Below are positions 186 through 21,006 of a DNA stretch of 55,222 nucleotides, one piece after another (the stretch's first letter is position 1; each line of letters starts with the position of its first letter). The notes beneath the pieces were generated by a model. That model did not search any database, had not been told where the DNA came from, and was given only the letters and a program-made list of their open reading frames with translations. This DNA is from a virus (taxonomy: Duplodnaviria > Heunggongvirae > Uroviricota > Caudoviricetes), in the IMG/VR virus record IMGVR_UViG_3300039452_000031. The stretch is one strand, 5' to 3'. Made by a program: the position numbers and the translations under genes.

Positions 186-186
186 A

Positions 187-6716: not shown

Positions 6717-7340
6717 TCAGTAGGTGCTGGGCACCAGGTCATCCCTTAGGAGTTCCTGTTCACTAGGTTCTTCCACGCCACCATCGTCGTGCGTCAGCTC
6801 CTGAACCTCAGGGGTATCCTCGCCATCAGGCTCACCATCGACTAGGGTTTCGAATTGCTCACCCGTCGACAGCGGATCTTCCAGACCCTCTGTGGTGTCG
6901 TCAACATCGGCCGCCATACCGTTGGGTGCATCGAGGGGGCCCTCGTCAACGGTCGAGTTAGCCATCAGGCGTTGAGCAGCTTGGATTTTCATAGAACTCC
7001 TTATCTCGGCAGGTACGATTCTGTCAGTTGGTATGGTGGCAAGGAATTCCAGGACCTCCGGGTGACCGTTGATCACACAGTGGTACATTCCTTTAGACAC
7101 CGTACCGTTGTAGGCGTCTGCTAATTTGTGACCTTGAGGGTCAACCAGTAGGCAATGTGTAGGTATGCCCTCATCGCCTACCAGGCAGATGTAGCCTGTG
7201 GTATTTGGATTGTTACGGAGGAAGCGGGCCACTGTCGAACGGCAGTCCTTGCCGATAGGACGTGTGCCGTCGATCATCGCAGCCAGTACATCCAAGTAAC
7301 CGCGAATGGTCGAGTTCTGGACTCTCACTTGTGCTTCCAC
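6717..7340 (-). CDS. Hypothetical protein with an acidic C-terminal half; possible nested in-frame start at 6992
   Basis: GTG start at 7340; internal AAGGAG-TTCT-ATG at 6992 begins MKIQAAQRLMA; D/E-rich tail. Confidence 0.65.
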   Translation of the reverse strand: MEAQVRVQNSTIRGYLDVLAAMIDGTRPIGKDCRSTVARFLRNNPNTTGYICLVGDEGIPTHCLLVDPQGHKLADAYNGTVSKGMYHCVINGHPEVLEFLATIPTDRIVPAEIRSSMKIQAAQRLMANSTVDEGPLDAPNGMAADVDDTTEGLEDPLSTGEQFETLVDGEPDGEDTPEVQELTHDDGGVEEPSEQELLRDDLVPSTY

Positions 7341-7546
7341 TTCCGCGCGTTCTCTGCGAACTGCGCCATCTTGGCGGCGTGACCGCCCGCCTTCTTGCCC
7401 TTCGCGATATCCGCGTCCGTGATCGGCTCGTCCTCAGATTTTCCGAGCCACTTGTGGAACCCACCCTTCTTAAGATCCAGATGCATGGGCTCTCGGGCTT
7501 CCACCTGCGTGGTGGCCTCAAGACGGGCTTTGGCTTCGATCTTCAT
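7325..7546 (-). CDS. Small basic protein with MKIEAKARLEA N-terminus (73 aa), probable internal virion protein
   Basis: ATG at 7546; shares the N-terminal motif with three other ORFs in the window. Confidence 0.7.
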   Translation of the reverse strand: MKIEAKARLEATTQVEAREPMHLDLKKGGFHKWLGKSEDEPITDADIAKGKKAGGHAAKMAQFAENARKWKHK

Positions 7547-7556
7547 TTCCGTTTTC

Positions 7557-7910
7557 CTATGGCTTGTAGGGCTTAAGCGCAGGCTTGCGGCCCCAAGGGT
7601 TCTTCGGCTTCGGACGTTCATGATCACCGTGCCTCATATGCGAATGCCGTGCCTCATGGCAGTCTTTGCATACCGTGATCAGATTGGCCTTAGTTGAAGT
7701 ACCGCCCCGGCTCAAGGCCAAGACGTGGTGCACATCTGCACCAGGACGACCGCAGACGCGACCGCCAACAATAGCACGGCAACGACCGCCATCACGGTCA
7801 AACACTTCCTTTCGGATTGACCACCAGCTGGTTCCCGTACTTGAGTTTGAATAGTTGTCACGCTGGATCCTTGCCGTGCCGTTGAATAGGCGCTTGGTGC
7901 GGGCCTTCAT
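7557..7910 (-). CDS. HNH endonuclease (short, Zn-binding type)
   Basis: RDGGRC...C...DVHH...GG...NL...CKDCHEARH matches the HNH/McrA-like pattern. Confidence 0.9.
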   Translation of the reverse strand: MKARTKRLFNGTARIQRDNYSNSSTGTSWWSIRKEVFDRDGGRCRAIVGGRVCGRPGADVHHVLALSRGGTSTKANLITVCKDCHEARHSHMRHGDHERPKPKNPWGRKPALKPYKP

Positions 7911-7922
7911 ATGAAATTGTGT

Positions 7923-8273
7923 CTAGCCGTTGGCGTTGTTTTGGCCCTGCCCTTGCGATCCGTATATTGGCGGATCAGTAGGGCGAGACGAAAAATAGAA
8001 ACGGATAACCGCACCCTGAAGAGCCATGAAAGGTGCTAGGACCGCGGCAATCAAGACCGCCGCATCGGAGCCCTGACCTTGATGGACCTCAGCGAAGTGC
8101 ATTCCCCAAGTAGTCAGCTTGTAGGTCCAATACAAGGTCACCACGCATACGGCGTGTTTGTCGATGTCACGGTGATCAGCAAAGTCAAAAAGGCCTGTGA
8201 AGGCCTCCTTGGTTAACTTAATACCAGATTTGATTGCGGCCCTCAAGTAGGCGCCTAGTGTTTGGGTAGTCAT
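7923..8273 (-). CDS. Membrane protein with two hydrophobic segments (holin-like topology possible)
   Basis: Hydrophobic stretches AVCVVTLYWTY and AAVLIAAVLAPFMALQGAVI; ATGA overlap with the upstream gene. Confidence 0.6.
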   Translation of the reverse strand: MTTQTLGAYLRAAIKSGIKLTKEAFTGLFDFADHRDIDKHAVCVVTLYWTYKLTTWGMHFAEVHQGQGSDAAVLIAAVLAPFMALQGAVIRFYFSSRPTDPPIYGSQGQGQNNANG

Positions 8274-8500
8274 TCGCTACCTCCAAGAGGCATCCTTTCA
8301 GGATCGTAGGAAATATGTCGAGCGTGATTCATGTATTTCCTACACCCTGGACATGGAGTTTCAGATACGGTAGTAAACCGACCTTCGTGAATCACGCTCT
8401 TGGTTAGACTACGGTAGACCATACCGCATTTGCATTCCACCTCATGTGGTCCGTACTTGCGAAGAGGTTCCCAGTCAATCTGCGGGGTGGTCATTGGCAT
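8270..8500 (-). CDS. Small Zn-ribbon protein
   Basis: CKC...CPGC cysteines; AAGGAG upstream (the ATG at 8494 is better spaced). Confidence 0.65.
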   Translation of the reverse strand: MPMTTPQIDWEPLRKYGPHEVECKCGMVYRSLTKSVIHEGRFTTVSETPCPGCRKYMNHARHISYDPERMPLGGSE

Positions 8501-8504
8501 CTCC

Positions 8505-9497
8505 TTAGGCGAAGGTCATCTCGCGGCTCGGATCCGGATAGATCCATTCGCCTGACAGCGAGGTCTTTGAGTATTCCACGACCGTGACCTCGAAGAAGTT
8601 CTTTAGCGTGTTGCCGGTGATTTCCTCAACGAAAGGCAGGGGGTTCTCTGAGATGCCGTATTGGGGCTTGAAGCCCATTTGCTGCATGCGGTAGTCACCA
8701 ACGTAGCGAACGTACTGCTTACCTTCGTCAGCAGTCATCGCCGTGTTGGAGCCCACGGAATACGCTAGGTCGATCGAGGCGTCCTCGATGGCGATAACCT
8801 GCGTATACAGGCGATAGACCCAGGCCTTGAACTCGTCGTTAACAACCTCCGGATGCTCGGTCAGGAATTGCTTGAGAAGCAGAATCAGACCATGGACATG
8901 AAGACTCTCATCCGTGATCGACCACTGGTTAATGGACACCATTCCAGGCAGCTTGCCCTCCTTGCCGAAGGACAACAGGTTGGCGAACATGCCGAAGAGA
9001 TTAACGCCCTCCATCAGGACCTGTTTAGTCAGGTACTTAGCGATATTGGTCGGGGTGTCGAGCTGCACCTCGGCGATCATGAACTCGTGCTTGGCAACCA
9101 GAGCCTCATACTGCAGGAACTCTGAGGCAAAGGCCTCTGTGTCATAGCCAAGAGTGTCATTCAGCCTCTTGTAGCCGATGATGTGTGTGGTTTCCCGAGC
9201 AGCAAAGCCTAGGAGCATGATGCGCGCATCAGCCTGTCGGAAGATGGGAAGCAGCTTCTCCACGTAAGAGGCGCATACATTGTGGTCCGACTGAGTGAAC
9301 AGTCTGAGGATCATCTTGATAAAGGCCTTGTTCTCGACCGTGATCTTGCCATTCGACCACTGCTCAACGTCGGTACGCATGTCCGCTTCGTCCACATTCC
9401 AGTGGGCACGCTCATGCTGCTTCCAGACCTCTTGAAAGGCCATGAACTTGGGAACGAAAATCTCCTGGGGCACCAGGACGCTAACTTCACTCATCAT
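8505..9497 (-). CDS. nrdB: Ribonucleotide reductase class Ia beta subunit
   Basis: Diiron ligands D (QSDHNV), ExxH plus radical Tyr (RETTHIIGY), E (MEGVNLF) and DESLH; TGATG overlap with nrdA. Confidence 0.95.
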   Translation of the reverse strand: MMSEVSVLVPQEIFVPKFMAFQEVWKQHERAHWNVDEADMRTDVEQWSNGKITVENKAFIKMILRLFTQSDHNVCASYVEKLLPIFRQADARIMLLGFAARETTHIIGYKRLNDTLGYDTEAFASEFLQYEALVAKHEFMIAEVQLDTPTNIAKYLTKQVLMEGVNLFGMFANLLSFGKEGKLPGMVSINQWSITDESLHVHGLILLLKQFLTEHPEVVNDEFKAWVYRLYTQVIAIEDASIDLAYSVGSNTAMTADEGKQYVRYVGDYRMQQMGFKPQYGISENPLPFVEEITGNTLKNFFEVTVVEYSKTSLSGEWIYPDPSREMTFA

Positions 9498-11854
9498 CAA
9501 CCCCCGCAAGCCTTGCATTCTTCACCTTGCCAATCCACAAGCGCCTGCCTTTGGATTTCCTTCACGTTGTCGACCTTCACCTCGCGCTCAGTGCGGTAGT
9601 AGTACAAGGTCAGCACGTTCTCCAACTTCAGGAACAGAATGTGAACTGAATTCACATAGGCCCTAAGGGAACCAGGCGGGAAGAAGAGGTTAAGAGACTG
9701 TGCTTGGCAAATGTATTGACCACGCTCATGGGCTAGGTAGACCAGCCAGTGCTGGTCCAGCTCCATAGCTGTCTTGTAAACCTTCTTGAGCCAATCTGGA
9801 ACTTCAAGATGCTGCACTGAACCGTCGTGATCCAGAATCGACTTCCAGACCCCTTTGGTATTCAAACCCAGTTCCTCAAGGTCACGCTCAAGGTACGGGT
9901 TCTTGCACATATAGGCCCCAGCACGGGAGTCCTTCATGAAGACATTGCGGTACCAAGGTTCGCAGGAAGGACTCACATTGGCGATGTCTGCCGAATTCGC
10001 GTTAGGCGCGATGGCCAAGAGGCGTGAATTACGGCGACCAGTGCCGCGCATGTCCGGAGCTTCACCTCGTTCTGCCCCTAGACGTAAGGATTCGGCAACT
10101 GCTCGCCCCTTGATGAGGTCGAAAATGATGTGAGTGTGTTGAGTGGCGGAATTGAAGCCACCGGATTCAAACGGGATACGGTGCTTCTGAAGATACGAGT
10201 GCCAACCGAAGGCGCCTAGGCCTAGCGCCCGCTCACGCTCGGCGCTGAACTTTGCCTTAGCCATCGAACTTGGGGCAGTATCAACGAACCACTGCAAGAC
10301 GTTGTCCAGGAACCGAATTAGGTCCTCAACAATCGTAGAGTCACGCCATTCGTCAAACTTCTCCAAGTTTAGGCTGGAGAGGCAGCAGACAAAGGTACGG
10401 AATTTGTCGGTCGGTAAGGTGATCTCGGTGCAGTTGTGAACCAGCACGCCGTTAGCGTAGAAGTTATGGTTCCCGTCAACCGTGATGTCATAAACGGGAA
10501 TTTCTTCACTAAGCTCCTCTATTGAGGACGGTCCTGGTGCAAAGGGTTCACGGATTTGACCCAGCGTCTCAGGAACGATCCTGAAGGTATCGTCGGCCTT
10601 CAGGTCCTTAGCCATTACGTAACCTCGGTTCTCAGTCCACACTTTGTGATCAGGTGTGCAGACCAGCTGCTTGCCGGTCTCTGAGCAAGTTACGCGGAGA
10701 ACCTTAGCCTTCTTGGACATTAGGGCGCTATTAGTGATGGCCTTAAACTCGGATTGTTTGGTTTCCGTGTTGTAGGACAGAACCTTATATCCAGTTTTGC
10801 CAATCACGCTTTCCAATGAAACATCTTCTGGTGCATCAGATTTGGGCGCAAGCACTGTGACCTTGGTATCGCCCGCGAGACAAAGATTGCTGCCGTTCAC
10901 GCGAAGACCTAGCGCCTTCTGGGTCTCAGGCATCAGCTCATTGATGCGGTCAATCTTGGTGAAGAAGGGTTCACCTGTAAGTGCCCGGGTGTCCAGCATC
11001 TCTTCCCAAAGATGACGGGCGTTGACCGTGTCGTGAAGCTCGTTGGTGTGTGGGCACCGAAGCTCGTAGTCAGGATTCGGGTCGGAACCAATGATCTTCG
11101 CAATCAAATCCTTCTTAAGGTTCACACCTGTATGGAATTGAGTGCGGTTGTCTGAGCGACGCTTTGAGTCACCACCAGGGACACGGAATCGGATGTGCTC
11201 CTTGATCGATGGGTGCACGGAGTCCATGTAGTAGGCTAGCGCACCCTTGCGTGTACCTCGTTGCTTGAAGTAGCCGATAGCCCCGTCCAGAACCTTCTCA
11301 AAAGGAATAGGCCCAGGAGCCTTCTTCGAGGTCGCCCTAATAGCATTGTGCGCACCAGTACCGCCGCCTGAGGTCGACAGTCGTGCCAGTTCCTTGATGA
11401 TGTCTTCCTGACCTTCCAGAGAATCCGGGACCTCAAAGGCGAAGCAGGAAATGGGCTGGCCTTGCGGCTTGGCCTTGGGAATGAAAGTCTGCCTATGCCA
11501 GTAGTGAGCGCCTTCCTTGGTTGGATCCTCATACCAAGTGCCAGCAGTGGCGTTGGACAGCACTGGGGAAGCGTACATGAACCACCCTTTATGGGCGTAG
11601 TTGTAGATACGCTGAGCCAGTTCATAGTCACCGAAACAGAAATTCACCGCAGGCCTAGCCAGCGCCTGGGGGATGGTTTCCCCTTCACGAACGTAATCCC
11701 CTTCATGCAGGAGAGCCTTGGACAGATCGGAAAGGAAAGAAGGGTTGCGACGATGCACCCTAATCCCTAGGTAATCATAGCGACTCGGCTCGGGAGCTCC
11801 TCCACTCTCCGAGGGTTGCAATGTGGTTTCAATGCTGTGTGACTCAACTAGCAT
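9497..11854 (-). CDS. nrdA: Ribonucleotide reductase class Ia alpha subunit, no ATP-cone visible, interrupted by a mini-intein
   Basis: ASPVLSN, PISCF, GSNL-[intein]-CTEI, CCLSSLNL, IAPNANS, QAQSLNLF, TLYYYR and a C-terminal CKAC. Confidence 0.95.
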   Translation of the reverse strand: MLVESHSIETTLQPSESGGAPEPSRYDYLGIRVHRRNPSFLSDLSKALLHEGDYVREGETIPQALARPAVNFCFGDYELAQRIYNYAHKGWFMYASPVLSNATAGTWYEDPTKEGAHYWHRQTFIPKAKPQGQPISCFAFEVPDSLEGQEDIIKELARLSTSGGGTGAHNAIRATSKKAPGPIPFEKVLDGAIGYFKQRGTRKGALAYYMDSVHPSIKEHIRFRVPGGDSKRRSDNRTQFHTGVNLKKDLIAKIIGSDPNPDYELRCPHTNELHDTVNARHLWEEMLDTRALTGEPFFTKIDRINELMPETQKALGLRVNGSNLCLAGDTKVTVLAPKSDAPEDVSLESVIGKTGYKVLSYNTETKQSEFKAITNSALMSKKAKVLRVTCSETGKQLVCTPDHKVWTENRGYVMAKDLKADDTFRIVPETLGQIREPFAPGPSSIEELSEEIPVYDITVDGNHNFYANGVLVHNCTEITLPTDKFRTFVCCLSSLNLEKFDEWRDSTIVEDLIRFLDNVLQWFVDTAPSSMAKAKFSAERERALGLGAFGWHSYLQKHRIPFESGGFNSATQHTHIIFDLIKGRAVAESLRLGAERGEAPDMRGTGRRNSRLLAIAPNANSADIANVSPSCEPWYRNVFMKDSRAGAYMCKNPYLERDLEELGLNTKGVWKSILDHDGSVQHLEVPDWLKKVYKTAMELDQHWLVYLAHERGQYICQAQSLNLFFPPGSLRAYVNSVHILFLKLENVLTLYYYRTEREVKVDNVKEIQRQALVDWQGEECKACGG
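10433..10882 (-). mobile_element. Mini-intein (150 aa, no endonuclease) in NrdA
   Basis: Block A CLAGDT, block B TPDH, block F VYDITV, block G VHN followed by Cys+1; removing it restores GSNLCTEI. Confidence 0.95.
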
Positions 11855-11861
11855 AGGTGGT

Positions 11862-12161
11862 TCAGATTTTAGAGGAGAGATAGGTAATGACACCCATGCT
11901 TGGATCGTGTAGCACAGGACCAAGGTAGAGGGGTGTCATTGTCGAAAGGTTCAGGCCCCGGCTGTATTTCCGAGGCACAAAGACTTTTGGAGTTCGGTAA
12001 GCGTCAGGTTGGGTTGGGCAACCTGGCTGGGGCTTTAGATACAAACCTCGTATGGTTGAACCTTGCTTGTGCTTTTCCAGCGCAAAGTCTTCAAGGCTGT
12101 AGTAAAGAGGATCACCCGGCCGGAACTCCAACCTATATGCAACCGGCACGGGTAAGATCAT
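11862..12161 (-). CDS. Hypothetical protein (99 aa)
   Basis: ATGA overlap with the upstream glycosyltransferase; fills the gap to nrdA. Confidence 0.55.
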   Translation of the reverse strand: MILPVPVAYRLEFRPGDPLYYSLEDFALEKHKQGSTIRGLYLKPQPGCPTQPDAYRTPKVFVPRKYSRGLNLSTMTPLYLGPVLHDPSMGVITYLSSKI

Positions 12162-13243
12162 GATCTAAGGAACCTCAGCCATTCATCAAGGGAAGCCTTC
12201 ACATAGTTAGCTAGACCACGCCGCTGCTCCTGCTGAACCACTTGGTTTCCTGAGCGTAGCCAAGTCCTATACATGACGGCCTGGATATTCTGAACCTCAT
12301 CAGGCCGTGCCTGATACTTCTCGCCCAGCCACGGAATGTTTGCGCCTATGATAGGTACGCCTGATGCAACTGCATCAGCACATACAATGTTGAAGGTCTC
12401 ACTCATGGAGACCTGAGTCACCATGTCCATACCCTGCGTATAGACCAGAAACTGATCGTGGTCCATCCAAGGGACTTCGATAAGTTCGTTCTGTGGTTGC
12501 TGTACGAAAAGGGCCTTAAGAGCCCTAAGGAGAGGGTCGGCCTGGTTCTCAACCCGGGAGGAGTTGACATGGAACTTGAGCTTCAGTCCCAACCGCTTGG
12601 CCATTAACGTGGCAGCAATGGCCTGGTTCATGTGATTCTTCAGCGGCCTGATGGCTCCGAAACACCCAATGTTCAAGTCACCGGCAACCTTAAGGGCTAC
12701 AGACCGACCACTAAAGTGCGAAAAGAAGTCTTTCAGCGGCGACGGGGAGTAGTCGAAGTTATAGTAGTTCGGTAGGTATACAACGTTACCAACCATTGCC
12801 TCGTTCTCAGCCGCCAGAGACTGCATGGTCTTCGCAGCCTTCGGGGAATTGAAGGCGACCGTGACACCCTTCTTCAGGTACTCTAGGGCCCATCCGAAGA
12901 TCATCCCTTCGTGAGCTAGGAACTCAGTGTTGGAGTGGCACCGCACGATCCACTTAACACCTTGACAGTCCCGTTGAGCCTTCAGTTCATCAAACTTCGG
13001 AGGCACAACCCAGAAGCCTTCGACAACAACATGCGTCGCCTTATAGGCAACAACCTCTCGGTGAATCTGGTTGTTGTCCGCGACGTGAACGACTGTGGCC
13101 TCGATACCTGCCTTACTTAGGGCAGTAACCACCTGATCAACAGAAACCGATAGGCCACTACTTAGAGGTGCGGATCCCTCGCTGTAGTTCCAGGCCCCCG
13201 GAAGGCCGGACTCTCGGTACTTGAGTACGAACAAAACTCGCAT
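12158..13243 (-). CDS. GT-B fold glycosyltransferase (GT4-like)
   Basis: FGAIRPLKN donor-binding loop and SMSETFNIVCADAVASGVPII (E-x7 motif region). Confidence 0.85.
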   Translation of the reverse strand: MRVLFVLKYRESGLPGAWNYSEGSAPLSSGLSVSVDQVVTALSKAGIEATVVHVADNNQIHREVVAYKATHVVVEGFWVVPPKFDELKAQRDCQGVKWIVRCHSNTEFLAHEGMIFGWALEYLKKGVTVAFNSPKAAKTMQSLAAENEAMVGNVVYLPNYYNFDYSPSPLKDFFSHFSGRSVALKVAGDLNIGCFGAIRPLKNHMNQAIAATLMAKRLGLKLKFHVNSSRVENQADPLLRALKALFVQQPQNELIEVPWMDHDQFLVYTQGMDMVTQVSMSETFNIVCADAVASGVPIIGANIPWLGEKYQARPDEVQNIQAVMYRTWLRSGNQVVQQEQRRGLANYVKASLDEWLRFLRS

Positions 13244-13273
13244 TTCTAAACCTCATTTGTTGGCGCATTGTGC

Positions 13274-13283
13274 CTATTTATCG
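13274..13283 (-). promoter_or_regulatory. Variant of the putative phage promoter motif (CGATAAATAG)
   Basis: Intergenic, about 30 nt upstream of the 13243 start; shares the TAAATA core with other copies. Confidence 0.35.
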
Positions 13284-13285
13284 TT

Positions 13286-14773
13286 TTAGATTACAGGACG
13301 TGAACGACCGTACCCTCCATACAGTGTTGCCACGGTAAGGGTTATCCCGACTGATCCCATAGCCCCTCTTGCAAGGATAGAAAAGTCTCCATCCCCGTTA
13401 GGTCCGGCGCCGGTTCCGCTTGTCTGGCCCTTTATGATTAGGTTCTGCTTTATGGGCTTCAGCTCGTTGTCCAGCTGGCTCTGAATCTTAGAGGCTGCGT
13501 TGTCCAAGTAAGAAGTCCTGTCCACATCCAGCGTGATGTTTGCTCCCGAGAAGTTGAAAGCTTTTTCACCTTCCATCAAGTATTGTGCTTCCAGGGAGGC
13601 CTTCTCAGCACACAGAAGCCAATACTCACGAACCACACCCTTAGCGTTCGTCATCGTGAAGGAGGTGAACTGACCAGCAGCACCGTTGAAGGTATCCATG
13701 CCTCGGCGAAGCCATTTCATGATTTCCGTAGACGGGAACTGCGAGTCAGGAGTGCCGTACAGAGTCTGGCGTGCCTTGTTGACTTTCGACTTCACGTCCT
13801 CAACTGCTTGAAGGATAGAGTCATTCACTAGCCATAGTGCTGCCTTCTCTCGGAAGAGTTGCCGGGGGTCATTCCAGAATTTCCAAATGATCTGATACGG
13901 GATCAGGGTCACAGGCATAGTGGACGTATCGATGGTGGCGGCCACGAAGTAGCCATTGGCGATACGTTCAGGATTCGGAACCTGAAGGGAGGCTAGGAGG
14001 CTACCGTCTAGCCAAATCTCCACCACATAGTTGGCATACAGCGTCTCAGTGACCAGCTGTACCATAGCCGGGTCGCCCGCCATCTCGATGGAGTCCACCG
14101 CACCGACCTGCATGGTTGGGAAACCGCGAACGAAGATCGATTCGAACGAGTAGTAGATGCCCTGGGCGCCTGCCACTGCCTGCGGGAGAGTCAGTGTGTA
14201 GCGCAGTTGGTATGGCGTGTCCACTGAGACTGGAATATCAGCCGGCACGTTGACCACCGATTTAGCAATCGCTGTATTGCTGATCCCATTGGATACGATT
14301 GAGTAATCGTAGGCATTACCTGACGAGTAGATGGTACCTGCTTGGTCTAGGAGGTCCCACGTCACGTAGCCCCCTGAGACATCCAGAGAAGGCGGGAACG
14401 AAAACATTGTGGTCGCCAAACCGGATTTGCCAGCCTCAATCTCACCCAAGAGGTCTTGGTACGACCCAGGATCCGTAACTGGGTACGGGCTGTAGGTATC
14501 AGCCAGAACTGAACACGCAACGGTCAGCGTGAACACCCTGAGGTTTGTGGTAACCGTGATTGGGAAGCCGTAGGTAATGCCAGTGTCGCCTGAGGTGATC
14601 TTGAACTGCAGGGGATCAGCATTACCTGATAGATTCTGGAACTGGGCAGAGTTGGCAGTAACAGGTGTGGCAGCCGCGACCACAATTGAGGTCACAGTCT
14701 CACCCGACTGAAGCCCAAGTGCCACCTGATTGACGATGTCCGAAGCGTCTTTAGTGAAGACGTAGGTATTCAT
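13286..14773 (-). CDS. Putative virion neck/adaptor protein with an N-terminal fibre-adaptor-like domain
   Basis: N-terminal FTKD...L.SGETVTS...G.TY...VTT..R pattern typical of fibre-tail adaptor domains; helical C-terminal region resembling head-tail connectors. The fold call is inference. Confidence 0.5.
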   Translation of the reverse strand: MNTYVFTKDASDIVNQVALGLQSGETVTSIVVAAATPVTANSAQFQNLSGNADPLQFKITSGDTGITYGFPITVTTNLRVFTLTVACSVLADTYSPYPVTDPGSYQDLLGEIEAGKSGLATTMFSFPPSLDVSGGYVTWDLLDQAGTIYSSGNAYDYSIVSNGISNTAIAKSVVNVPADIPVSVDTPYQLRYTLTLPQAVAGAQGIYYSFESIFVRGFPTMQVGAVDSIEMAGDPAMVQLVTETLYANYVVEIWLDGSLLASLQVPNPERIANGYFVAATIDTSTMPVTLIPYQIIWKFWNDPRQLFREKAALWLVNDSILQAVEDVKSKVNKARQTLYGTPDSQFPSTEIMKWLRRGMDTFNGAAGQFTSFTMTNAKGVVREYWLLCAEKASLEAQYLMEGEKAFNFSGANITLDVDRTSYLDNAASKIQSQLDNELKPIKQNLIIKGQTSGTGAGPNGDGDFSILARGAMGSVGITLTVATLYGGYGRSRPVI

Positions 14774-15750
14774 TATCGCTCCCTAAAGAAGGTGTTCTTG
14801 CCGAAGGCCTTCCACTGGAAGCCTCGCTGGTTACCCTTGTTGTCCTTGAAGGTGAAGTTCGGTTTGTTCTTCACTACCGTAAGGGTGCCTTTCAAGAGCC
14901 GCCCCTTGTAGAGAGCCCAACAAGGATCTGTGTGCTCCAAATAGGTAAGAGGTTGAAGCTTGGCCATCGCAGAGTCAGTGGCCATGGTTCCCAAGTCCGA
15001 CAACTCCTCGTGCATCTTTGCCTTCTGGTCAGAGGTCATATACTCATCCTCTTCCGTAGGATCAAAGCGACGAGGATCTAGACCAACGTGCGTCATCCAA
15101 TGTTGCCACGTCTTACCGTGACCAGCCTGTGAGCGATCTCTGTCCTTGGAGATTACCCATGCGGCTTCATGACAAAGTTCGTGGAGGAAAATTTCGAGGA
15201 AGAAGGGGAGTCGAGCATTGAAGATGAAGGTTGCCATCCAGAGTCGACCAGCGGTGAAGCTTGACCCTGGGTAGTAGATGCCTCGAGGATTGGTTGCACC
15301 AGGGGCATTCTGAGGAGGCTTGTCCGAGGTTAGGAACTTAGGCTCGGGAAGGCGACCTTGAAATTTCTCGACATTGAAGAACTCGAACAGGGAGGTCATG
15401 AACGAAAGGCGACGGCCACTGCTGACCACCGCCTTAGACCACATGAGTTCCAACTCGGGAGTGATTTGCGTATGCCCTAGATGGGTATCCAAAGCCTTGC
15501 GAACCGTCCGAGTGCCGGAGGGGATGAAACGCAGGAGATTCTTGGCCGGAGAGATACCGATCTTGCCAATCTCAGGCAATGTATAGACCAATACCTTACC
15601 TGCTGCGACCGTAGGTTCACCGAAGGCGCGCATGCGCTTCTCTTCCATTGAGGCGAAGCTGAAGGTCGGCTTGCCTTCTTCATTCTTGATCAACTTCAGG
15701 TCCTTGAACCCCAAGCCAGTCAGGAACTTGACGATGTCTGGGAGTTCCAT
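14773..15750 (-). CDS. SprT-like zinc metalloprotease
   Basis: FLHELCH (HExxH) followed by GHGKTWQHWM, the SprT third-ligand motif. Confidence 0.85.
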   Translation of the reverse strand: MELPDIVKFLTGLGFKDLKLIKNEEGKPTFSFASMEEKRMRAFGEPTVAAGKVLVYTLPEIGKIGISPAKNLLRFIPSGTRTVRKALDTHLGHTQITPELELMWSKAVVSSGRRLSFMTSLFEFFNVEKFQGRLPEPKFLTSDKPPQNAPGATNPRGIYYPGSSFTAGRLWMATFIFNARLPFFLEIFLHELCHEAAWVISKDRDRSQAGHGKTWQHWMTHVGLDPRRFDPTEEDEYMTSDQKAKMHEELSDLGTMATDSAMAKLQPLTYLEHTDPCWALYKGRLLKGTLTVVKNKPNFTFKDNKGNQRGFQWKAFGKNTFFRER

Positions 15751-15751
15751 A

Positions 15752-16162
15752 TTAAGCCTCGGACCGATTCACGAAGTTGGTAATAGCCTGCTCAAGGCCA
15801 GGGTGCATGGGTTCTGGAAACTTGTCAGTCCACACGTAGTCCGTATGCTCGTCGTTTAGGACGGGAGTGAATTCCTCGGGAACGGCAGCGAAGTGATTGT
15901 GGAAAACGAAGCCACCATGGTCTTGGCGATCCATATGGTGAAGCTCGTAGTCACCGTCGTAGCCCAGCTCCTCAACGCACTCGCGGCGCACAGCTTGCTC
16001 GATAGTCTCATTGTTTTCCACACCACCGCCACTGGTGCACCACGTACCTGGATGATCACCTTGAGAGGAACGCTTGACGAACAGGCATCGACCTGTAGCA
16101 GGGCAAATGAACAGCACACCTGCACCGTAGCCGGTTTCTCGGCCAGCTTTTACTTTTTCCAT
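15752..16162 (-). CDS. NUDIX hydrolase
   Basis: Nudix box GGGVENNETIEQAVRRECVEELG; GAGG upstream of the ATG at 16162. Confidence 0.92.
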   Translation of the reverse strand: MEKVKAGRETGYGAGVLFICPATGRCLFVKRSSQGDHPGTWCTSGGGVENNETIEQAVRRECVEELGYDGDYELHHMDRQDHGGFVFHNHFAAVPEEFTPVLNDEHTDYVWTDKFPEPMHPGLEQAITNFVNRSEA

Positions 16163-16169
16163 ATCTACC

Positions 16170-16688
16170 TCAAGGCAAACATACTGGATCCGAGAACACA
16201 ACTTGAGGTCCTCGCCGCATAAAGTTCTTATCTGTTAGGTCCAAGAGACCGAAGTGTCGGGCGCAGAATTTGGCTAGGACCTTTGTGTCCTCATCTTGTG
16301 ATTCCTGCGAGGTCTTAACCCACTCAGGGTAAGACATTCGACACTTGATGGAGAAGCGATCTTGGTCGATTGTGGGGTTGATCTCCTGGATCGCCCGCTC
16401 GATCATCGACCAGTTGGTTGGCTGCAGGCGCTCGATTAGAATCAGGCATGCTTTAGCGTCCTCAAGATCAAGGGTATCGAAGGCTTGAATTCTAGGAAGC
16501 CAACGATTGCCTTGGTTGTGAAAGCAGAAGGGGATGAAGGCCTCTTGATAAGGAAGATCACCTACAGAGACCTTGACTACCGTGCGAGGATCACGTGGGT
16601 GATCGAACACCCAACTGTGCATACCCTTACCCAGAAAGCGGCAGTCCTTATTCATCTGAGCCAGGTACTGCTGTAGGGTTTGACCCAT
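16170..16688 (-). CDS. Minimal protein-kinase-fold enzyme (Ser/Thr kinase or APH-like)
   Basis: Gly loop LGKGMHSWV, VVKV lysine, IERL hinge, catalytic DLTDKN (DxxxxN) and a DP metal-binding motif. Confidence 0.8.
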   Translation of the reverse strand: MGQTLQQYLAQMNKDCRFLGKGMHSWVFDHPRDPRTVVKVSVGDLPYQEAFIPFCFHNQGNRWLPRIQAFDTLDLEDAKACLILIERLQPTNWSMIERAIQEINPTIDQDRFSIKCRMSYPEWVKTSQESQDEDTKVLAKFCARHFGLLDLTDKNFMRRGPQVVFSDPVCLP

Positions 16689-16689
16689 A

Positions 16690-17865
16690 TCAGGCTCCGT
16701 TGATAACGTTGGCAAGCTTTCGCAGTTGGGTGGGGCTAAGCTTATACTTGTCCTCCAAAAATTCCAGATCCGAGGGATGCACACCGCCTTCTTGATCCAA
16801 GTTGGAGAACGTAAAGATCAACTTGTTGCCTGCGGTACGCATACGAACCTGTGTGGAGCGCTTCTTCTTACGCAGCGATTTGACCTCGAGGTACAGTTGG
16901 TTTTTGACCTCGTCGATCTCTTCTTCAGAGAGTTGAGGATCGAGGACGAAGATCAGTTCGTCCCTGTCAGCCTTCACGTCCTTGATATGTTCGGCAGCCG
17001 AGAAAGCTTGACTGCGGAGGCCACCCACAGGTTCGCGAAGCTGCATCGCCACCGGTAGGTTACCAATCTGAGCCGAGAAGCCCTCTAATGAAAGTTGCTG
17101 CTCGATGACCTTCGCAGCCTGCTTGGTGTTCTCCACAACCGTACCTTCACCAAGGAGAGTCGGGGCTACAAACTCGTTCTCAACGAAAACCTCGACATCC
17201 CCACCAACCGTCCACTTGATGGTGATGTAGATATGGGGCGCGACATTGCCCTGATCATTGACTGCATTCTTGAGGATGATATAGCCTGCAAAAATGAGGT
17301 TACCTGTCTTGTCCAGAGCAGCGTAGGTCATGGTATCCACACCATCAACCTCAAGGTGCTGCTTGCTGTTCAGCTCCTCAGCTAGGGAAGCCACGAACTT
17401 AAGGTATTCCTTGGGTGCGTGGCGTTGAGCCACCGAAGCTAGTTCTTCAAACAGGCGCTTAAGGGTGGCTTCAATGTTGGACCTCATCTTGGTCACCGAA
17501 CCCAAGGTCTCCTTATAGGACGGGCTCGGGTTCTTACCGAACGTCATCTTCAGGTCGTTCTCGATGTCCAGGAGACGCTTGTACTGCTCACTCAGCTTCT
17601 CCGTGACCTTGTAGTTCTTCTCCAGGGCAGCGGCGTTCGGAACCTTGACGATTGGGAAGTCGACGTTGATGGTCTTCTTCGTCCTCTTGCCGCCCGTTGT
17701 GCCTGAGAAGTCAAATTCCTCGGCGGCCTTGAGTGCGGATGCGGCACTAAGTCGAGCCAGTTGACGGATATTCTTGTCCGCCATCTGGGTTTCGAGACCG
17801 ATGTCTTCGCCCATCTGCTTGAGAAGCCGACGCACGTCCTCAAGGGACCTAAACTTGTTATCCAT
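16690..17865 (-). CDS. Hypothetical protein, probably virion structural (391 aa)
   Basis: TGATG overlap at 17865; coiled-coil N-terminal half; lies within the structural block. Confidence 0.7.
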   Translation of the reverse strand: MDNKFRSLEDVRRLLKQMGEDIGLETQMADKNIRQLARLSAASALKAAEEFDFSGTTGGKRTKKTINVDFPIVKVPNAAALEKNYKVTEKLSEQYKRLLDIENDLKMTFGKNPSPSYKETLGSVTKMRSNIEATLKRLFEELASVAQRHAPKEYLKFVASLAEELNSKQHLEVDGVDTMTYAALDKTGNLIFAGYIILKNAVNDQGNVAPHIYITIKWTVGGDVEVFVENEFVAPTLLGEGTVVENTKQAAKVIEQQLSLEGFSAQIGNLPVAMQLREPVGGLRSQAFSAAEHIKDVKADRDELIFVLDPQLSEEEIDEVKNQLYLEVKSLRKKKRSTQVRMRTAGNKLIFTFSNLDQEGGVHPSDLEFLEDKYKLSPTQLRKLANVINGA

Positions 17866-18059
17866 CACTTTTCCTCTTTCTCTACGGGCCACACTTGTGT
17901 CCGTCGTTGAATATCTTGGCCCTCGCCATTAGGGCTGGTTGTTACTGAATAGGCCATGGAGGGGCAATACGTCCAGGCATTGGCCTGAAGCTCATCAGGA
18001 AGACCTTCGACTTGAATGGCATCCGCACCGTCACTGTCAATGAAGACTTGAATATCCAA
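17865..18059 (-). CDS. Small hypothetical protein
   Basis: TTG start; its stop overlaps the next ATG. Confidence 0.45.
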   Translation of the reverse strand: MDIQVFIDSDGADAIQVEGLPDELQANAWTYCPSMAYSVTTSPNGEGQDIQRRTQVWPVEKEEK

Positions 18060-18112
18060 CGGCGCAGTTCCACTCCAAGGCCTCTATCGCACAAGTCAGA
18101 CGATCACGAATC

Positions 18113-18493
18113 TCAGGGGAGGAGCAAACGATTTTCAGCTCTAGAGCACATTGAGATTCGGGAGGGATTGCTCTTGCGAACAACCTTTGGCGGGCCTGGA
18201 TCTTGGTCTTGCGCATAAGGTATCTTTCGTTCCCTATCTGGGACTAAATGTCGACGTGTGTCGTAGTCAAGGATACCTTGAACTGCCTTCTTGTTCAGGG
18301 ACCAGAAGTAGACGATTCGGAAATGGTCTTCAACCTCCTGGGTTGACATGCCTAGGCATTCATGAAGTCTCCTCATTTCCAGAATCATGTGGTCTGGGAG
18401 ACGCATGTTGTGCGCGGTCCTCAGTTGACCTATATGACCCATAGTTAGTCGTTGTCCTGAGGAGGCCCAAGAAAAGATATCAGAACAACTCAT
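18113..18493 (-). CDS. Hypothetical protein, possible helix-turn-helix DNA-binding
   Basis: ATGA overlap; ILEMRRLHECLGMSTQEVEDHF resembles an HTH. Confidence 0.55.
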   Translation of the reverse strand: MSCSDIFSWASSGQRLTMGHIGQLRTAHNMRLPDHMILEMRRLHECLGMSTQEVEDHFRIVYFWSLNKKAVQGILDYDTRRHLVPDRERKIPYAQDQDPGPPKVVRKSNPSRISMCSRAENRLLLP

Positions 18494-19113
18494 GCGATAA
18501 GGACCTTGATGAAGGCATTGAGCTCCAGGAGTTGATTCTCACAGTCCACTAGAGCATCATGTGCACCTGGAAGGAGTGGAAGGGCTTTATCAAACTTTGA
18601 TCCAACTCGATGTCTCGCTAAGGCCTTAACGGGATTGATGTCGAATTGCTCGTAAAAGAAGGTGCCTGGGATAGAAGTGTCGCCCTCAAAACGCGATAGG
18701 TCGATGACGCCCTTCTCCCACAGAAACAGGATGTCGGTCGATACGCAATCACCAGTGGGAGAGACTTCGTTAGCCCAACCAGACATCCATTGAGCAAGAA
18801 GGGGACGGGCATCAGCCAATGTATAGGTCGATGCTCTGCACTTCTCGTAGACCTCGCGCATATGCTCCAACGCAAACGCAGAGATCGGTTCCTTGTCGGT
18901 CCGGATGTAGAGATTGAAGATCGGCCACAAAGGCAGCGGGGCGTAACCTTGACCTACAGGATCCCAGACCAGCTTGATGGCTGCCACTTGGAGAAGGTCA
19001 TCGGTACGTGGATCAAGACCGGTCATCTCGCAGTCGATCATGACCAATCGTTCAGGCAGAAACATGGGGCGCTCATCTGAGGCCTTCAAGCGGGTAGCGG
19101 CTTCGATCTTCAT
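18490..19113 (-). CDS. DEDDh 3'-5' exonuclease, oligoribonuclease-like, with MKIEAATRLKA N-terminus
   Basis: MIDCEMTGLD (Exo I), VSTD (Exo II) and HDALVD (Exo III). Confidence 0.85.
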   Translation of the reverse strand: MKIEAATRLKASDERPMFLPERLVMIDCEMTGLDPRTDDLLQVAAIKLVWDPVGQGYAPLPLWPIFNLYIRTDKEPISAFALEHMREVYEKCRASTYTLADARPLLAQWMSGWANEVSPTGDCVSTDILFLWEKGVIDLSRFEGDTSIPGTFFYEQFDINPVKALARHRVGSKFDKALPLLPGAHDALVDCENQLLELNAFIKVLIA

Positions 19114-19126
19114 TTTAGACCTTGTT

Positions 19127-20371
19127 CTAGAACTCGAATTCGGTTGGACCAACACCAGAGGTCGGCTTGGAGAATGCTGGTGTAGTGGCATTAACAACCT
19201 TCTGGCCCGTTACCTTCTGCCTGATCGGTAGTAGGTAGTAGAGTTCCTGCGGCTGACAGACTCGCACCTGACACGTCCAACCCAGCATCTGCCTGTTCCG
19301 TGTGTTCCACGGATCGACGTTCTGGACGACCAGCAACTTGCCTAGCTGTGACTCGGCAACGATATCCTGAGGTTGGAGATTCGGGATGTCAGGGGAGACG
19401 ACGATCTGGAACGGCTCAGTCTGTTCCAGAAGCGAAATGTCCGAACTCTTTGTCCTCTTCGGGAACTCGAAGTAGATTGGTTCAGGCGACAGCGAGGCTT
19501 GGATCTCAATATGAGTCAGAGGCTCTGAGGTCTCGACCACTATCGTATGAGGCCGGCCGTCGAAGAAGGCCAGTAGCGAGGTATAGCCGCCTACTGGTTG
19601 GCCATCGATATAAAATTTGGACAGGGTTGGTAGCCTATCGTTCCAAGTCCGGAAAACATCGATGGCTGTCGGCATCCTGGGAAGGGTGACCGTGCAGGTG
19701 TGGCTACCCGGTTCGAGACTAAACTTGGGCAGCATCAGGGCTGAGTTGGTAGTCAAGTCTGAGGGTACCAACACCTTACGGAAAGTTCGGAACGGCGAAT
19801 AGCCACCTATATATGAGGTACCGAAGCAGATCGGGCACGACACGTCAGAGATTCCGAAGGCCGAGGGGTCCAGCCCGTTTAGGAGCGCCTCAACGATATC
19901 CGGTGCAGATTGACCAGCATCCTCTACTGCCTCGTCAGGTGTCAAAACGTTATCGAATCTGAAGTCCTCACCTGCCTTAGACAGGTCACCTAACCATTGG
20001 TTACGAGCGTCGGTTGGTGATGTCGGATACGCAACTAGCTCATTCATGGTCTCCAGGTCATCCTCAGGAGTACCCGGCTTGTATTCCGAGATGCCGAACC
20101 GTTGCTCGCCAGTCAGAACACGGTTGATGGCACCCATTGGCGCCTTACCGTCTGGTGAGAGGCGAGAGACTTCAGCGTTCTTCGTCCTGCAGGTACAGAG
20201 CATACCCTGACCAAGCCGTGAATACAAGATGGCCGACACTCCTTGGGTACGGAAGGCAGCCATCATGCGTTGTTGCTGCATAGGCGCAATGGACTCGGTC
20301 ATGCGGTGTGCGACATCCGCAGCGCGAGCGTTCGCCGGTGTCAGCGGTGCTTTCCTGTCGATGATTGGCAT
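19127..20371 (-). CDS. Putative virion head-completion/neck protein with a Zn motif
   Basis: CTC...CPICFGTSYIGGY, a pattern seen in large-myovirus neck proteins; structural-block context. Function is inference. Confidence 0.5.
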   Translation of the reverse strand: MPIIDRKAPLTPANARAADVAHRMTESIAPMQQQRMMAAFRTQGVSAILYSRLGQGMLCTCRTKNAEVSRLSPDGKAPMGAINRVLTGEQRFGISEYKPGTPEDDLETMNELVAYPTSPTDARNQWLGDLSKAGEDFRFDNVLTPDEAVEDAGQSAPDIVEALLNGLDPSAFGISDVSCPICFGTSYIGGYSPFRTFRKVLVPSDLTTNSALMLPKFSLEPGSHTCTVTLPRMPTAIDVFRTWNDRLPTLSKFYIDGQPVGGYTSLLAFFDGRPHTIVVETSEPLTHIEIQASLSPEPIYFEFPKRTKSSDISLLEQTEPFQIVVSPDIPNLQPQDIVAESQLGKLLVVQNVDPWNTRNRQMLGWTCQVRVCQPQELYYLLPIRQKVTGQKVVNATTPAFSKPTSGVGPTEFEF

Positions 20372-20379
20372 GATGCTTC

Positions 20380-21006
20380 CTACACGGTAACTACGTAAAC
20401 GCTTAGGGATTTGGCGTTGCCTTCTACCGAACGTCTGAGTTTCAAGTCACCCAAGGATACAAGTTCACCTGCCCTCTCAACTACAGGCCATACTGTCCCA
20501 CTAGGTGAGGTTTTGAACCCATGGATCTTGACTTTGTGCAGAACATCTTTGAAGTTTTCCCTAGTCTTGACGGACAGATAGCCGCCGTACTTCTTGATCA
20601 GCTTGGACCACAGTAATGAGGATCCCGGCGAGAGTTCCACCGAAGACGACAGTGATCCAAAGGTCTTCAGTAAGTATTCGTAAAGTGTGAAGCCAATGCC
20701 TTGTCCCTGATATTTGGGATTCACCATGGCCAATGAGATACTTTTGATACCTGGCACATACGAGAAGCCTAGGGTGACATTGGCTACAATCTTTCTTGCT
20801 TTCATGTCAAGTAGTAGATAGCCATGCCTGCGCAGGTGGTACAAGGGGTAGCCCATCAGCAAGGCCTTTGGTTTCAGCCCCTTGATGCCGTCAAACACCT
20901 CATCAAGCTCACGCTGGTCATCGTAGTTCGCCCATTTCCACATTCTTGTCTTGTTGAAGCGGTTGGCCTCGAAAGCCTCCAGGCGTTCGCGTGCTAGGAT
21001 TTTCAT
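20380..21006 (-). CDS. GNAT-family acetyltransferase with MKILARERLEA N-terminus
   Basis: Acetyl-CoA motif A VNPKYQGQGIGFTLY; downstream S..S..LW.KL motif B. Confidence 0.8.
   Translation of the reverse strand: MKILARERLEAFEANRFNKTRMWKWANYDDQRELDEVFDGIKGLKPKALLMGYPLYHLRRHGYLLLDMKARKIVANVTLGFSYVPGIKSISLAMVNPKYQGQGIGFTLYEYLLKTFGSLSSSVELSPGSSLLWSKLIKKYGGYLSVKTRENFKDVLHKVKIHGFKTSPSGTVWPVVERAGELVSLGDLKLRRSVEGNAKSLSVYVVTV

What the first reader, a model, noticed from the sequence alone, without database searches (positions are those of the whole stretch)
6960..21006. Shared N-terminal signal MKIxAxxRLxA on four unrelated proteins: candidate capsid-targeting or protease-cleavage tag
Seen: MKIEAKARLEA (start 7546, small basic protein), MKIEAATRLKA (19113, DEDDh exonuclease), MKILARERLEA (21006, GNAT) and MKIQAAQRLMA (6992, acidic protein). 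All match at seven fixed positions with identical spacing, and the downstream sequences share nothing. All lie in the structural block. Established analogy: T4 internal proteins carry a ~10 aa capsid targeting sequence removed by the prohead protease. Inference: this is a packaging address that loads enzymes into the head for injection, and it could serve as a protein-cargo tag.
Basis: partly seen in the sequence, partly recalled or inferred. Interest (0 to 1): 0.78.

Follow-up and report, generated by a model that had tools for sequence, protein, structure and literature searches.

The report
Shared N-terminal address tag, phiRSL1-like phages
Four unrelated proteins of this giant phage really do begin with the same 11-residue peptide, which heads about 200 different proteins across its relatives and most likely loads them into the virus head, though packaging and cutting have not been tested.

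Summary
MKIxAxxRLxA occurs four times in the window, against 0 in 100 shuffles. Synonymous codons differ between copies, so selection acts on the peptide.

The contig is a 136-kb fragment of an uncultured jumbo phage related to Ralstonia phiRSL1, Burkholderia BCSR5 and BcepSauron, and Achromobacter Motura. It holds 6 strict copies and 8 by a looser core pattern.

The tag runs through the clade. I collected about 203 non-redundant tagged N-termini in 137 unrelated sequence clusters, with core [ILV]-x-A-[AS]-x-R-L-x-A. They include:
- an Orn-like exonuclease
- GNAT-like, NUDIX, T7 gp0.7-like kinase, SprT-like and homospermidine-synthase-like enzymes
- many small charged proteins

The tag behaves as a separable module. 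Inserts of 20-70 residues lie between tag and domain in some orthologues, and other orthologues lack the tag. A more distant clade carries M[SG]FLx[KR][VI]xA on the same kinds of protein.

Tagged genes cluster near the head genes. The head protease has the T4 gp21 fold (Z 9.9).

Best reading (about 0.5): a T4-type capsid-targeting propeptide. Packaging and cleavage are not shown, and the cut site is undetermined.

This scan has already reported analogous LxE-ending tags in T4-like phages on other DNA. This is a new variant in a different lineage.

The parts
6960..6992 (-). Tag copy MKIQAAQRLMA. It heads a 91-residue acidic polypeptide (6717-6992), but it is in frame with, and internal to, a 203-207-codon ORF reaching 7340.
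   Evidence: AAGGAG lies 5 nt upstream of the ATG
7514..7546 (-). Tag copy MKIEAKARLEA at the start of a 73-residue basic protein (gene 7325-7546). The upstream HNH gene stops at 7557.
   Evidence: A relative (P0297) fuses this protein's homologue to the acidic tail of the 6717-6992 product.
19081..19113 (-). Tag copy MKIEAATRLKA at the start of an Orn-like DEDDh exonuclease (gene 18490-19113).
   Evidence: Pfam RNase_T 29 bits. The 15 closest homologues all carry the tag; two have 20-70 residue inserts between tag and domain; more distant homologues lack it or carry a variant.
20974..21006 (-). Tag copy MKILARERLEA at the start of a GNAT-like protein (gene 20380-21006).
   Evidence: Pfam Acetyltransf_1 20.9 bits, at the cut-off. 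Tagged homologues occur in 6 sources.
18037..18216 (-). Possible fifth tagged ORF (MRKTKIQARQRLFARA, 59 residues). It overlaps the 126-codon ORF 18113-18493 in another frame, so its reality is uncertain.
3..227 (-). 5' part of the head maturation protease gene (first 75 codons), cut by the contig end. This is the candidate enzyme that would remove the tag.
   Evidence: tblastn to the phiRSL1 ORF132 and BcepSauron gp085 proteases; ORF listing. The family model's best PDB match is T4 gp21, 5jbl_A, Z 9.9, rmsd 2.9 A over 128 residues.
13286..14773 (-). Head-tail connector (portal-like) gene, flanked by the tagged genes.
   Evidence: phrog_17327, E 3.4e-62; DNA similarity to the connector genes of phiRSL1, BcepSauron, Motura and BCSR5
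14773..15750 (-). SprT-like metalloprotease-domain protein with no tag here. Homologues in relatives carry the tag.
   Evidence: Pfam SprT-like; tagged SprT-like proteins L064:574-1779 and L066:5730-7028
15752..16201 (-). NUDIX hydrolase with no tag here. NUDIX proteins are tagged in phiRSL1 (weak variant), BcepSauron (short variant) and several metagenomic relatives.
16170..16784 (-). T7 gp0.7-like kinase-like protein with no tag here. A homologue in a relative is tagged.
   Evidence: phrog_15752; tagged kinase L131:3672-4286, phrog_15752 E 2e-21

Best explanation
The 11-mer is a lineage-specific N-terminal address peptide of phiRSL1-like jumbo phages: a few residues after Met, then [ILV]-x-A-[AS]-x-R-L-x-A-[small]. 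A phage-encoded part of head assembly reads it. Candidates are the scaffold/core, the inside of the shell, or the gp21-type protease itself. Tagged proteins are thereby built into the prohead, and the prohead protease probably trims the tag off. The cargo (small charged 'internal' proteins and host-takeover-type enzymes) would then enter the cell with the DNA.

Shown here: the tag exists, is under peptide-level selection, is modular, is clade-wide, its genes lie near the head genes, and the clade has a T4 gp21-fold protease.

Inferred, not shown: binding to a head component, encapsidation, cleavage and where it occurs, and injection.
For: 1. Not chance, and selected as a peptide: 4 matches against 0 in 100 shuffles, with differing synonymous codons.

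2. N-terminal and clade-wide. By a looser core pattern, the count within 6 residues of a start was 8 in the own contig (1.2 expected if uniform), 18 in G002 (0.9), 18 in Motura (2.8) and 13 in BCSR5 (2.6). Reversed-sequence controls gave 0-2. Strict copies: 7 in BCSR5 and 1 in Motura. IMG/VR gave 75 loci, and all five multi-copy contigs tested carry the phiRSL1-type protease.

3. Cargo diversity: about 203 non-redundant tagged N-termini in 137 clusters. They include an Orn-like exonuclease, GNAT-like, NUDIX, kinase, SprT-like, homospermidine-synthase-like and DUF3175 proteins.

4. Modularity. Orn-like orthologues have 20-70 residue inserts between tag and domain, and other orthologues are untagged. 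The SprT-like, NUDIX and kinase genes are tagged in relatives but not here.

6. Link to head genes. Tagged genes within 25 kb of the capsid gene: BCSR5 7/9, Motura 16/17, G001 13/13. The gene just after the protease gene is tagged in phiRSL1, BCSR5, G001 and G002; in G001 and G002 the region between the protease and capsid genes also holds a tagged, small, acidic coiled-coil, scaffold-like protein.

7. The protease has the T4 gp21/assemblin fold. In T4, such a protease removes 10-20 residue N-terminal capsid-targeting propeptides from the internal proteins, Alt and gp24 (PMC5694885).

8. The N-termini of the capsid protein and of the gp084-like protein carry a similar basic-aliphatic-x-Ala-small unit.
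Against: No virion proteome, N-terminal sequence or localisation data exist for any member of the clade that I could find.

The tag does not end in the L/I-x-E or S/A/G-x-E motif known for gp21-type proteases, and no residue at a fixed distance downstream is conserved. Cleavage and its position are therefore guesses.

Some cargo, such as a homospermidine-synthase-like enzyme, is not an obvious capsid passenger.

Much of the clustering near head genes comes from tandem arrays of small paralogues, so the positions are not independent. In G002 the clustering is not significant (P 0.41).

The resemblance to the capsid protein's N-terminus is a short, low-information motif.
Confidence: 0.5

Rival explanations
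1. The tag is an address or docking peptide for a phage-encoded partner other than the capsid. Candidates are a hub or chaperone, an AAA+ machine, or a phage-built compartment or replication factory that gathers takeover and nucleic-acid enzymes.
For: Many tagged proteins are enzymes whose site of action is the cytoplasm: kinase, NUDIX, Orn-like exonuclease, SprT-like, homospermidine-synthase-like. Lineage-specific tag variants point to a phage-encoded reader but do not say which. Relatives encode AAA-family ATPases.
Against: Tagged genes cluster by the head module, and the gene next to the head protease is tagged in four phages. Small acidic scaffold-like proteins carry the tag. No candidate non-capsid receptor was identified. 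The AAA matches may simply be replication clamp-loader-type proteins and were not examined further.
Confidence: 0.2
2. The tag is only a substrate site or a stability signal. Either it is an N-terminal degron (or anti-degron) read by host proteases to time the life of takeover enzymes, or it is a pro-sequence that keeps enzymes inactive until cut.
For: It is short, N-terminal, begins Met-basic-aliphatic, and sits on potentially toxic enzymes. From my own knowledge, ClpX recognises some N-terminal motifs that begin Met-basic-hydrophobic.
Against: A host-read degron need not change between phages of similar hosts, yet the Burkholderia phages BCSR5 and BcepSauron use different variants. The tag also heads inert-looking small acidic and basic proteins in the head module. 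No ClpP-family protease is encoded by the phages.
Confidence: 0.1
3. The similarity has no function at the protein level. It would be a translation-start optimum, or a shared recombination joint spread by module shuffling.
For: Lys at codon 2 and A-rich starts favour expression in general (my own knowledge). The 6992 copy sits at a junction where a relative has a differently assembled gene.
Against: The nucleotide sequence is not conserved while the residues are. Residues 8-11 are as conserved as residues 2-5. The core tolerates 0-5 extra residues after Met. It persists across lineages whose cargo proteins have diverged beyond recognition.
Confidence: 0.05

Closest known systems
Capsid targeting sequences (CTS) and short N-terminal propeptides of phage T4 head proteins (IPI-III, Alt, gp24, gp67/68), removed by the gp21 prohead protease (Mullaney and Black 1996, as reviewed in PMC5694885)
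   Same: A 10-20 residue N-terminal peptide shared by unrelated proteins of one phage, enzymes included. The phage has a gp21-fold head protease. The genes lie by the head genes. The tag is portable.
   Different: The phage lineage differs (phiRSL1-like, with a small 360-residue capsid protein). The sequence is unrelated. It ends in R-L-x-A, not L/I-x-E. It marks many more protein families (137 clusters). Nothing has been tested experimentally.
Propeptides of ejection and inner-body proteins of phiKZ-like giant phages (SPN3US gp53/gp54 share an identical 15-residue N-terminus; cleavage at S/A/G-x-E; PMC5694885)
   Same: Giant phages in which paralogous inner-head proteins share a conserved N-terminus and are processed by a gp21-type protease.
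   Different: Those propeptides are mostly over 100 residues and are shared only among paralogues. Here an 11-mer is shared across unrelated families, and no x-E site is conserved.
Herpesvirus assemblin maturation and release sites, consensus (V/L/I)-x-A|S (my own knowledge; not checked in a paper here)
   Same: The protease has the same fold superfamily (Z about 7.5 to assemblins). The tag's L-x-A-[A/S/T] fits an aliphatic P3, Ala P1 and small P1' pattern.
   Different: The assemblin sites lie in scaffold proteins near the C-terminus and are not N-terminal address tags. The specificity of the phiRSL1-type protease is unknown.
Encapsulation peptides of bacterial microcompartments and cargo-loading peptides of encapsulins (my own knowledge)
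   Same: A short terminal peptide plus a variable linker, appended to diverse enzymes, is enough to address them to the inside of a protein shell. Encapsulin shells share the HK97 fold with phage capsids.
   Different: Sequences and shells differ. Those peptides are not cleaved. This is a likeness in how it may work, not membership.
Earlier findings of this scan on other DNA (e1-1730725, e1-1844984, e1-1678222 and others)
   Same: Uncultured large phages in which many unrelated proteins share short N-terminal leaders, read as capsid-targeting propeptides.
   Different: Most of those are T4-like phages with leaders ending in (I/L)-x-E. This one is the phiRSL1 lineage, with an Ala-ending core.

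Membership tests
T4-type capsid targeting sequence / N-terminal head propeptide | Short (about 10-20 residue) peptide at the extreme N-terminus, shared by otherwise unrelated proteins of the phage | tested here: met
T4-type capsid targeting sequence / N-terminal head propeptide | The phage encodes a gp21-type (assemblin-fold) prohead serine protease | tested here: met
   Model pLDDT 88.8. Best PDB match 5jbl_A (T4 gp21), Z 9.9, rmsd 2.9 A over 128 residues, followed by herpesvirus proteases. His and Ser are invariant in 104 homologues. The gene's 5' end is at window 3-227.
T4-type capsid targeting sequence / N-terminal head propeptide | The peptide ends in the protease's cleavage motif (in T4, L/I-x-E; in phiKZ-like phages, S/A/G-x-E) | tested here: inconclusive
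   The core ends in R-L-x-A. Glu is only weakly enriched two residues later (22/203) and no downstream position is fixed. The phiRSL1/BcepSauron-type variants continue A-T-E-V, which does fit A-x-E. The specificity of this protease is unknown.
T4-type capsid targeting sequence / N-terminal head propeptide | Tagged proteins are present in proheads and virions, and the tag is absent from the mature protein | not testable with these tools
   No virion proteome or N-terminal sequence for this clade was found.
T4-type capsid targeting sequence / N-terminal head propeptide | The tag is sufficient to carry a foreign protein into the head | not testable with these tools
   Needs a fusion experiment in a cultured relative.
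T4-type capsid targeting sequence / N-terminal head propeptide | Genes are associated with the head-morphogenesis module | tested here: met
   Within 25 kb of the capsid gene: BCSR5 7/9, Motura 16/17, G001 13/13. Not significant in G002. The positions are not independent.
Assemblin-type cleavage site (V/L/I)-x-A|S | Aliphatic residue at P3, Ala at P1, small residue at P1' | tested here: inconclusive
   Among the 203 tags: L or I at P3 (required by the search pattern; L 192, I 11), Ala at P1 in 159, and A/S/T at P1' in 110 (that position was not constrained). The pattern fits, but it is short and cleavage is untested.
Host ClpX-type N-terminal degron | Recognition and degradation by the host AAA+ protease | not tested
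   Only indirect arguments: the variants follow phage lineage, not host, and no phage ClpP was found.

The most novel reading that the evidence does not exclude
phiRSL1-like jumbo phages run a general protein-packaging system. One short, portable, lineage-specific peptide sends dozens of unrelated proteins into the capsid for co-injection, among them a protein kinase, NUDIX, nanoRNase-like, acetyltransferase-like, SprT-like and polyamine-synthesis enzymes. A gp21-fold protease that has shifted to an Ala-type (assemblin-like) site trims the peptide off. The tag alone would then serve as a programmable cargo-loading handle.
Probability: 0.3. Interest if true: 0.75.

Novelty: new variant of a known kind. 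Interest (0 to 1): 0.6.

Why it matters
If the reading is right, the tag gives a sequence-only way to list the injected proteome of a whole, mostly uncultured clade of giant phages of Burkholderia, Ralstonia and Achromobacter.

It would point to which enzymes act in the first seconds of infection. It would also offer a compact handle for loading foreign proteins into large capsids.

It would extend the T4 capsid-targeting principle to an unrelated lineage with a different recognition sequence.

Tried and rejected
- Complex prediction: capsid protein + protease (residues 36-248) + a 69-residue tagged acidic protein, each with an alignment. Score 0.00, verdict 'no answer'. This is no evidence either way.
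- First protease model, from a 12-sequence alignment: pLDDT 48.5, unusable. Redone with 104 sequences.
- Protease against Pfam: no family. Against PDB sequences by phmmer or profile: no protease hit. hhalign against T4 gp21: not significant (E 0.3 and 0.048), although the deeper profile placed the invariant Ser opposite the gp21 residue I take to be its catalytic Ser.
- Conserved DNA element instead of a peptide: rejected, because codons and upstream DNA differ.
- Fixed downstream Glu as a T4-like cut site: not found.
- tblastn of a 20-residue tag against cultured phage genomes: only BCSR5 itself.
- Orthologues of the window's small tagged proteins in the five relatives: none by tblastn.
- Literature and annotation searches for a virion proteome or any mention of this motif: nothing.
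- Link to the phage tmRNA tag (which ends RLAA): noted as a superficial likeness and not pursued.
- Phage-encoded ClpP: absent. AAA-family hits in relatives were not followed up.
Full report
**What is in the window.** The four N-termini are as described: MKIQAAQRLMA (start 6992), MKIEAKARLEA (7546), MKIEAATRLKA (19113) and MKILARERLEA (21006), all on the minus strand. The back-translated pattern matches 4 times in the window and never in 100 dinucleotide-preserving shuffles. At the fixed residues the codons differ between copies (AAA/AAG; GCT/GCC/GCA; CGC/CGT; CTG/CTT/TTG), and the DNA upstream is unrelated. What is conserved is therefore the peptide, not a DNA or RNA element.

Three copies sit exactly at gene starts, just after the stop codon of the preceding gene. 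The copy at 6992 has a strong AAGGAG upstream, but it lies in frame inside a 203-207-codon ORF with no intervening stop. The source's gene call treats it as internal. A possible fifth copy in the window (MRKTKIQARQRLFARA, 18216) lies in an ORF that overlaps another one.

**Where it comes from.** The window is the first 55 kb of a 136-kb viral contig, about 58% complete. Its connector gene resembles those of Ralstonia phage phiRSL1, Burkholderia phages BcepSauron, BcepSaruman and BCSR5, and Achromobacter phage Motura. The contig breaks inside the head maturation protease gene (window 3-227), so the capsid gene is missing from it. The 'structural block' of the finding is in fact mixed. It holds a connector and the protease, but also ribonucleotide reductase, an HNH endonuclease, a glycosyltransferase-like protein, SprT-like, NUDIX and kinase-like proteins, topoisomerase IB and a large helicase.

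**The tag is clade-wide and N-terminal.** The whole contig has 6 strict copies and 8 by a looser core pattern. BCSR5 has 7 strict copies (9 with Arg at position 2). Motura has about 17 of the form M-x-I-Q-A-x-x-R-L-x-A, almost all within 25 kb of the capsid gene. BcepSauron and phiRSL1 have recognisable variants: AAYRLL, and AAVxRLxATEVxA.

A scan of IMG/VR gave 75 loci. The contigs with several copies all carry the phiRSL1-type protease and capsid genes. One 78-kb contig (G002) has about 18 tagged genes. Fetching 36 head modules through the capsid protein gave more, often as M(x1-5)-L-N-A-A-x-R-L-x-A.

By a looser core pattern, the number of cores within 6 residues of an ATG start far exceeds the uniform expectation: own contig 8 against 1.2, G002 18 against 0.9, Motura 18 against 2.8. 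Reversed-sequence controls gave 0-2.

Pooled, there are about 203 non-redundant tagged N-termini. The core is [ILV]-[E/N/Q]-A-[A/S]-x-R-L-x-A-[A/S/T], and 131 of them have exactly 'M-x' before the core. The pooled set rests on a search pattern that requires R, L/I and a small residue, and it surely contains some false positives.

**What carries it.** With the tag removed, the 203 proteins fall into 137 BLAST clusters, 114 of them singletons. The families I could identify are:
- an Orn-like DEDDh exonuclease (this window)
- a GNAT-like protein (this window; Pfam score at the cut-off)
- NUDIX hydrolases
- a T7 gp0.7-like protein kinase
- SprT-like proteins
- a saccharopine-dehydrogenase/homospermidine-synthase-like enzyme
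- DUF3175 proteins

The rest are mainly small acidic, basic or coiled-coil proteins, some in tandem paralogue arrays.

**The tag is a separable module.** Among homologues of the window's exonuclease, the 15 closest all carry the tag. Two of them have 20-70 extra residues between the tag and the first strand of the domain. Two more distant homologues lack it. A further group starts MSFLSKVEAV or AALRRVIA instead.

A contig from that distant group has at least seven genes starting M[SG]FLx[KR][VI]xA, again including an exonuclease and a NUDIX protein. So the same kinds of protein carry a different, lineage-specific version of the tag.

Conversely, the SprT-like, NUDIX and kinase-like genes of this window have no tag, while their relatives do. 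Variants differ between phages of similar hosts (BCSR5 and BcepSauron, both on Burkholderia). That argues that whatever reads the tag is phage-encoded.

**Link to the head.** In the near-complete genomes the tagged genes lie near the capsid gene: BCSR5 7/9, Motura 16/17 and G001 13/13 within 25 kb. G002 is not significant, and tandem arrays make the positions non-independent.

The gene immediately after the protease gene is tagged in phiRSL1 (ORF133), BCSR5, G001 and G002. In G001 and G002 the region between the protease and capsid genes also holds a tagged 66-69-residue acidic coiled-coil protein, the place and character of a scaffold or core protein.

The protease family has no Pfam model. 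A model built from 104 homologues (pLDDT 88.8) matches T4 gp21 best: 5jbl_A, Z 9.9, rmsd 2.9 A over 128 residues. Herpesvirus assemblins follow at Z about 7.5. His and Ser are invariant.

In T4, gp21 removes 10-20-residue N-terminal propeptides from gp24, Alt and the internal proteins. Those propeptides are the capsid targeting sequences, and they have been used to load foreign proteins (PMC5694885, citing Mullaney and Black).

**Where would it be cut?** This stays open. The tag looks like two copies of one unit, basic-aliphatic-x-Ala-small (K-I-x-A-A, then R-L-x-A-a).

Similar units stand at the N-termini of the capsid protein (M-x(1-3)-K-[VI]-[KQ]-[VI]-x-A-[AS]-[RK]-T-P; 65 of the 120 capsid homologues fit the strict form) and of the gp084-like protein encoded between the protease and capsid genes. 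L-x-A-[small] fits the assemblin type of site, aliphatic-x-Ala|Ser (my own knowledge).

On the other hand, gp21-type proteases studied so far cut after Glu. The phiRSL1- and BcepSauron-type tags continue A-T-E-V, and the capsid N-terminus continues A-[AS]-E-[YF]. No downstream Glu is fixed across all tags. These are short motifs and I treat them as leads only.

A profile of the capsid protein aligns to the one solved relative (6wkk_A) only from residue 73 onward. The first 70 or so residues are therefore an extension that could be a propeptide.

**Interpretation.** The best-supported reading is a capsid-targeting, probably cleavable address tag (about 0.5). The rivals are:
- an address for some other phage-encoded partner (0.2)
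- a degron or pro-sequence (0.1)
- no protein-level function (0.05)

The evidence argues mainly against the last two: peptide-level conservation, lineage-specific variants, and no phage ClpP.

I found no paper or annotation that mentions this motif, and no virion proteome for the clade.

This scan has already reported analogous leaders, mostly ending in (I/L)-x-E, in T4-like phages on other DNA. The present case is a new variant in a different lineage, with a different core.

**An oddity at 6992.** A relative's single 122-residue protein (P0297) combines a homologue of the 73-residue tagged basic protein (7325-7546) with the acidic tail of the 6717-6992 product. Here the two are separated by a stop codon, an extra domain of about 116 residues, and a second copy of the tag. 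An internal tag would make sense as a protease site or as an internal start. I could not decide between these.

Noticed in passing
window 6717-7546 (minus strand); protein P0297: Gene rearrangement. A relative encodes one 122-residue protein that joins a homologue of the 73-residue tagged basic protein to the acidic C-terminal tail found here in the next ORF. In this phage a stop codon, a domain of about 116 residues with no homologues, and a second tag copy lie between them.
   Followed up: partly
L194 (JGI contig Ga0617945_0002166), genes at 2478, 3262, 4127, 7743, 9843(-), 10351(-), 11002(-): A more distant phage lineage uses a different shared N-terminus, M[SG]FLx[KR][VI]xA, on an Orn-like exonuclease, a NUDIX protein and several small proteins. 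This looks like a parallel, lineage-specific version of the tag. The same contig has an AAA+ ATPase and a secreted trypsin-like protease.
   Followed up: partly
window 9497-11923 (minus strand): The large ribonucleotide reductase ORF (808 residues) appears to carry an intein-like insert: a Cys-led block near CLAGDTKV and an ending in VHNC before the resumed reductase sequence.
   Followed up: no
window 14773-15750, 15752-16201 and 16170-16784 (minus strand): The SprT-like, NUDIX and T7 gp0.7-like kinase-like genes sit beside the connector gene and lack the tag here, while homologues in related phages carry it. Tag gain and loss on orthologues seems frequent.
   Followed up: partly
Head modules L158-L192: N-termini of the capsid protein and of the gp084-like protein: Both begin with a conserved basic-aliphatic-x-Ala-small unit resembling half of the tag. 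The capsid protein has an N-terminal extension of about 70 residues relative to its only solved relative (6wkk_A).
   Followed up: partly
Protease family alignment A4 (first-sequence residues 176-195): The gp21-fold head protease of this clade carries a conserved Cys-x2-Cys ... Cys-x-His insert after the catalytic Ser. This is a probable zinc-binding knuckle; I do not know of one in T4 gp21.
   Followed up: no
BcepSauron about 190.4 kb; Motura about 209.2 kb; G001 about 101.6 and 105.9 kb: Weak second matches to the major capsid protein (30-36% identity over 50-84 residues) elsewhere in these genomes. They may be capsid-protein paralogues such as a vertex protein.
   Followed up: no
window 21010-22629 (minus strand): A eukaryote/poxvirus-type topoisomerase IB (Pfam Topoisom_I, E 2e-17) lies directly upstream of the tagged GNAT-like gene and is conserved in phiRSL1 (ORF108).
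   Followed up: no
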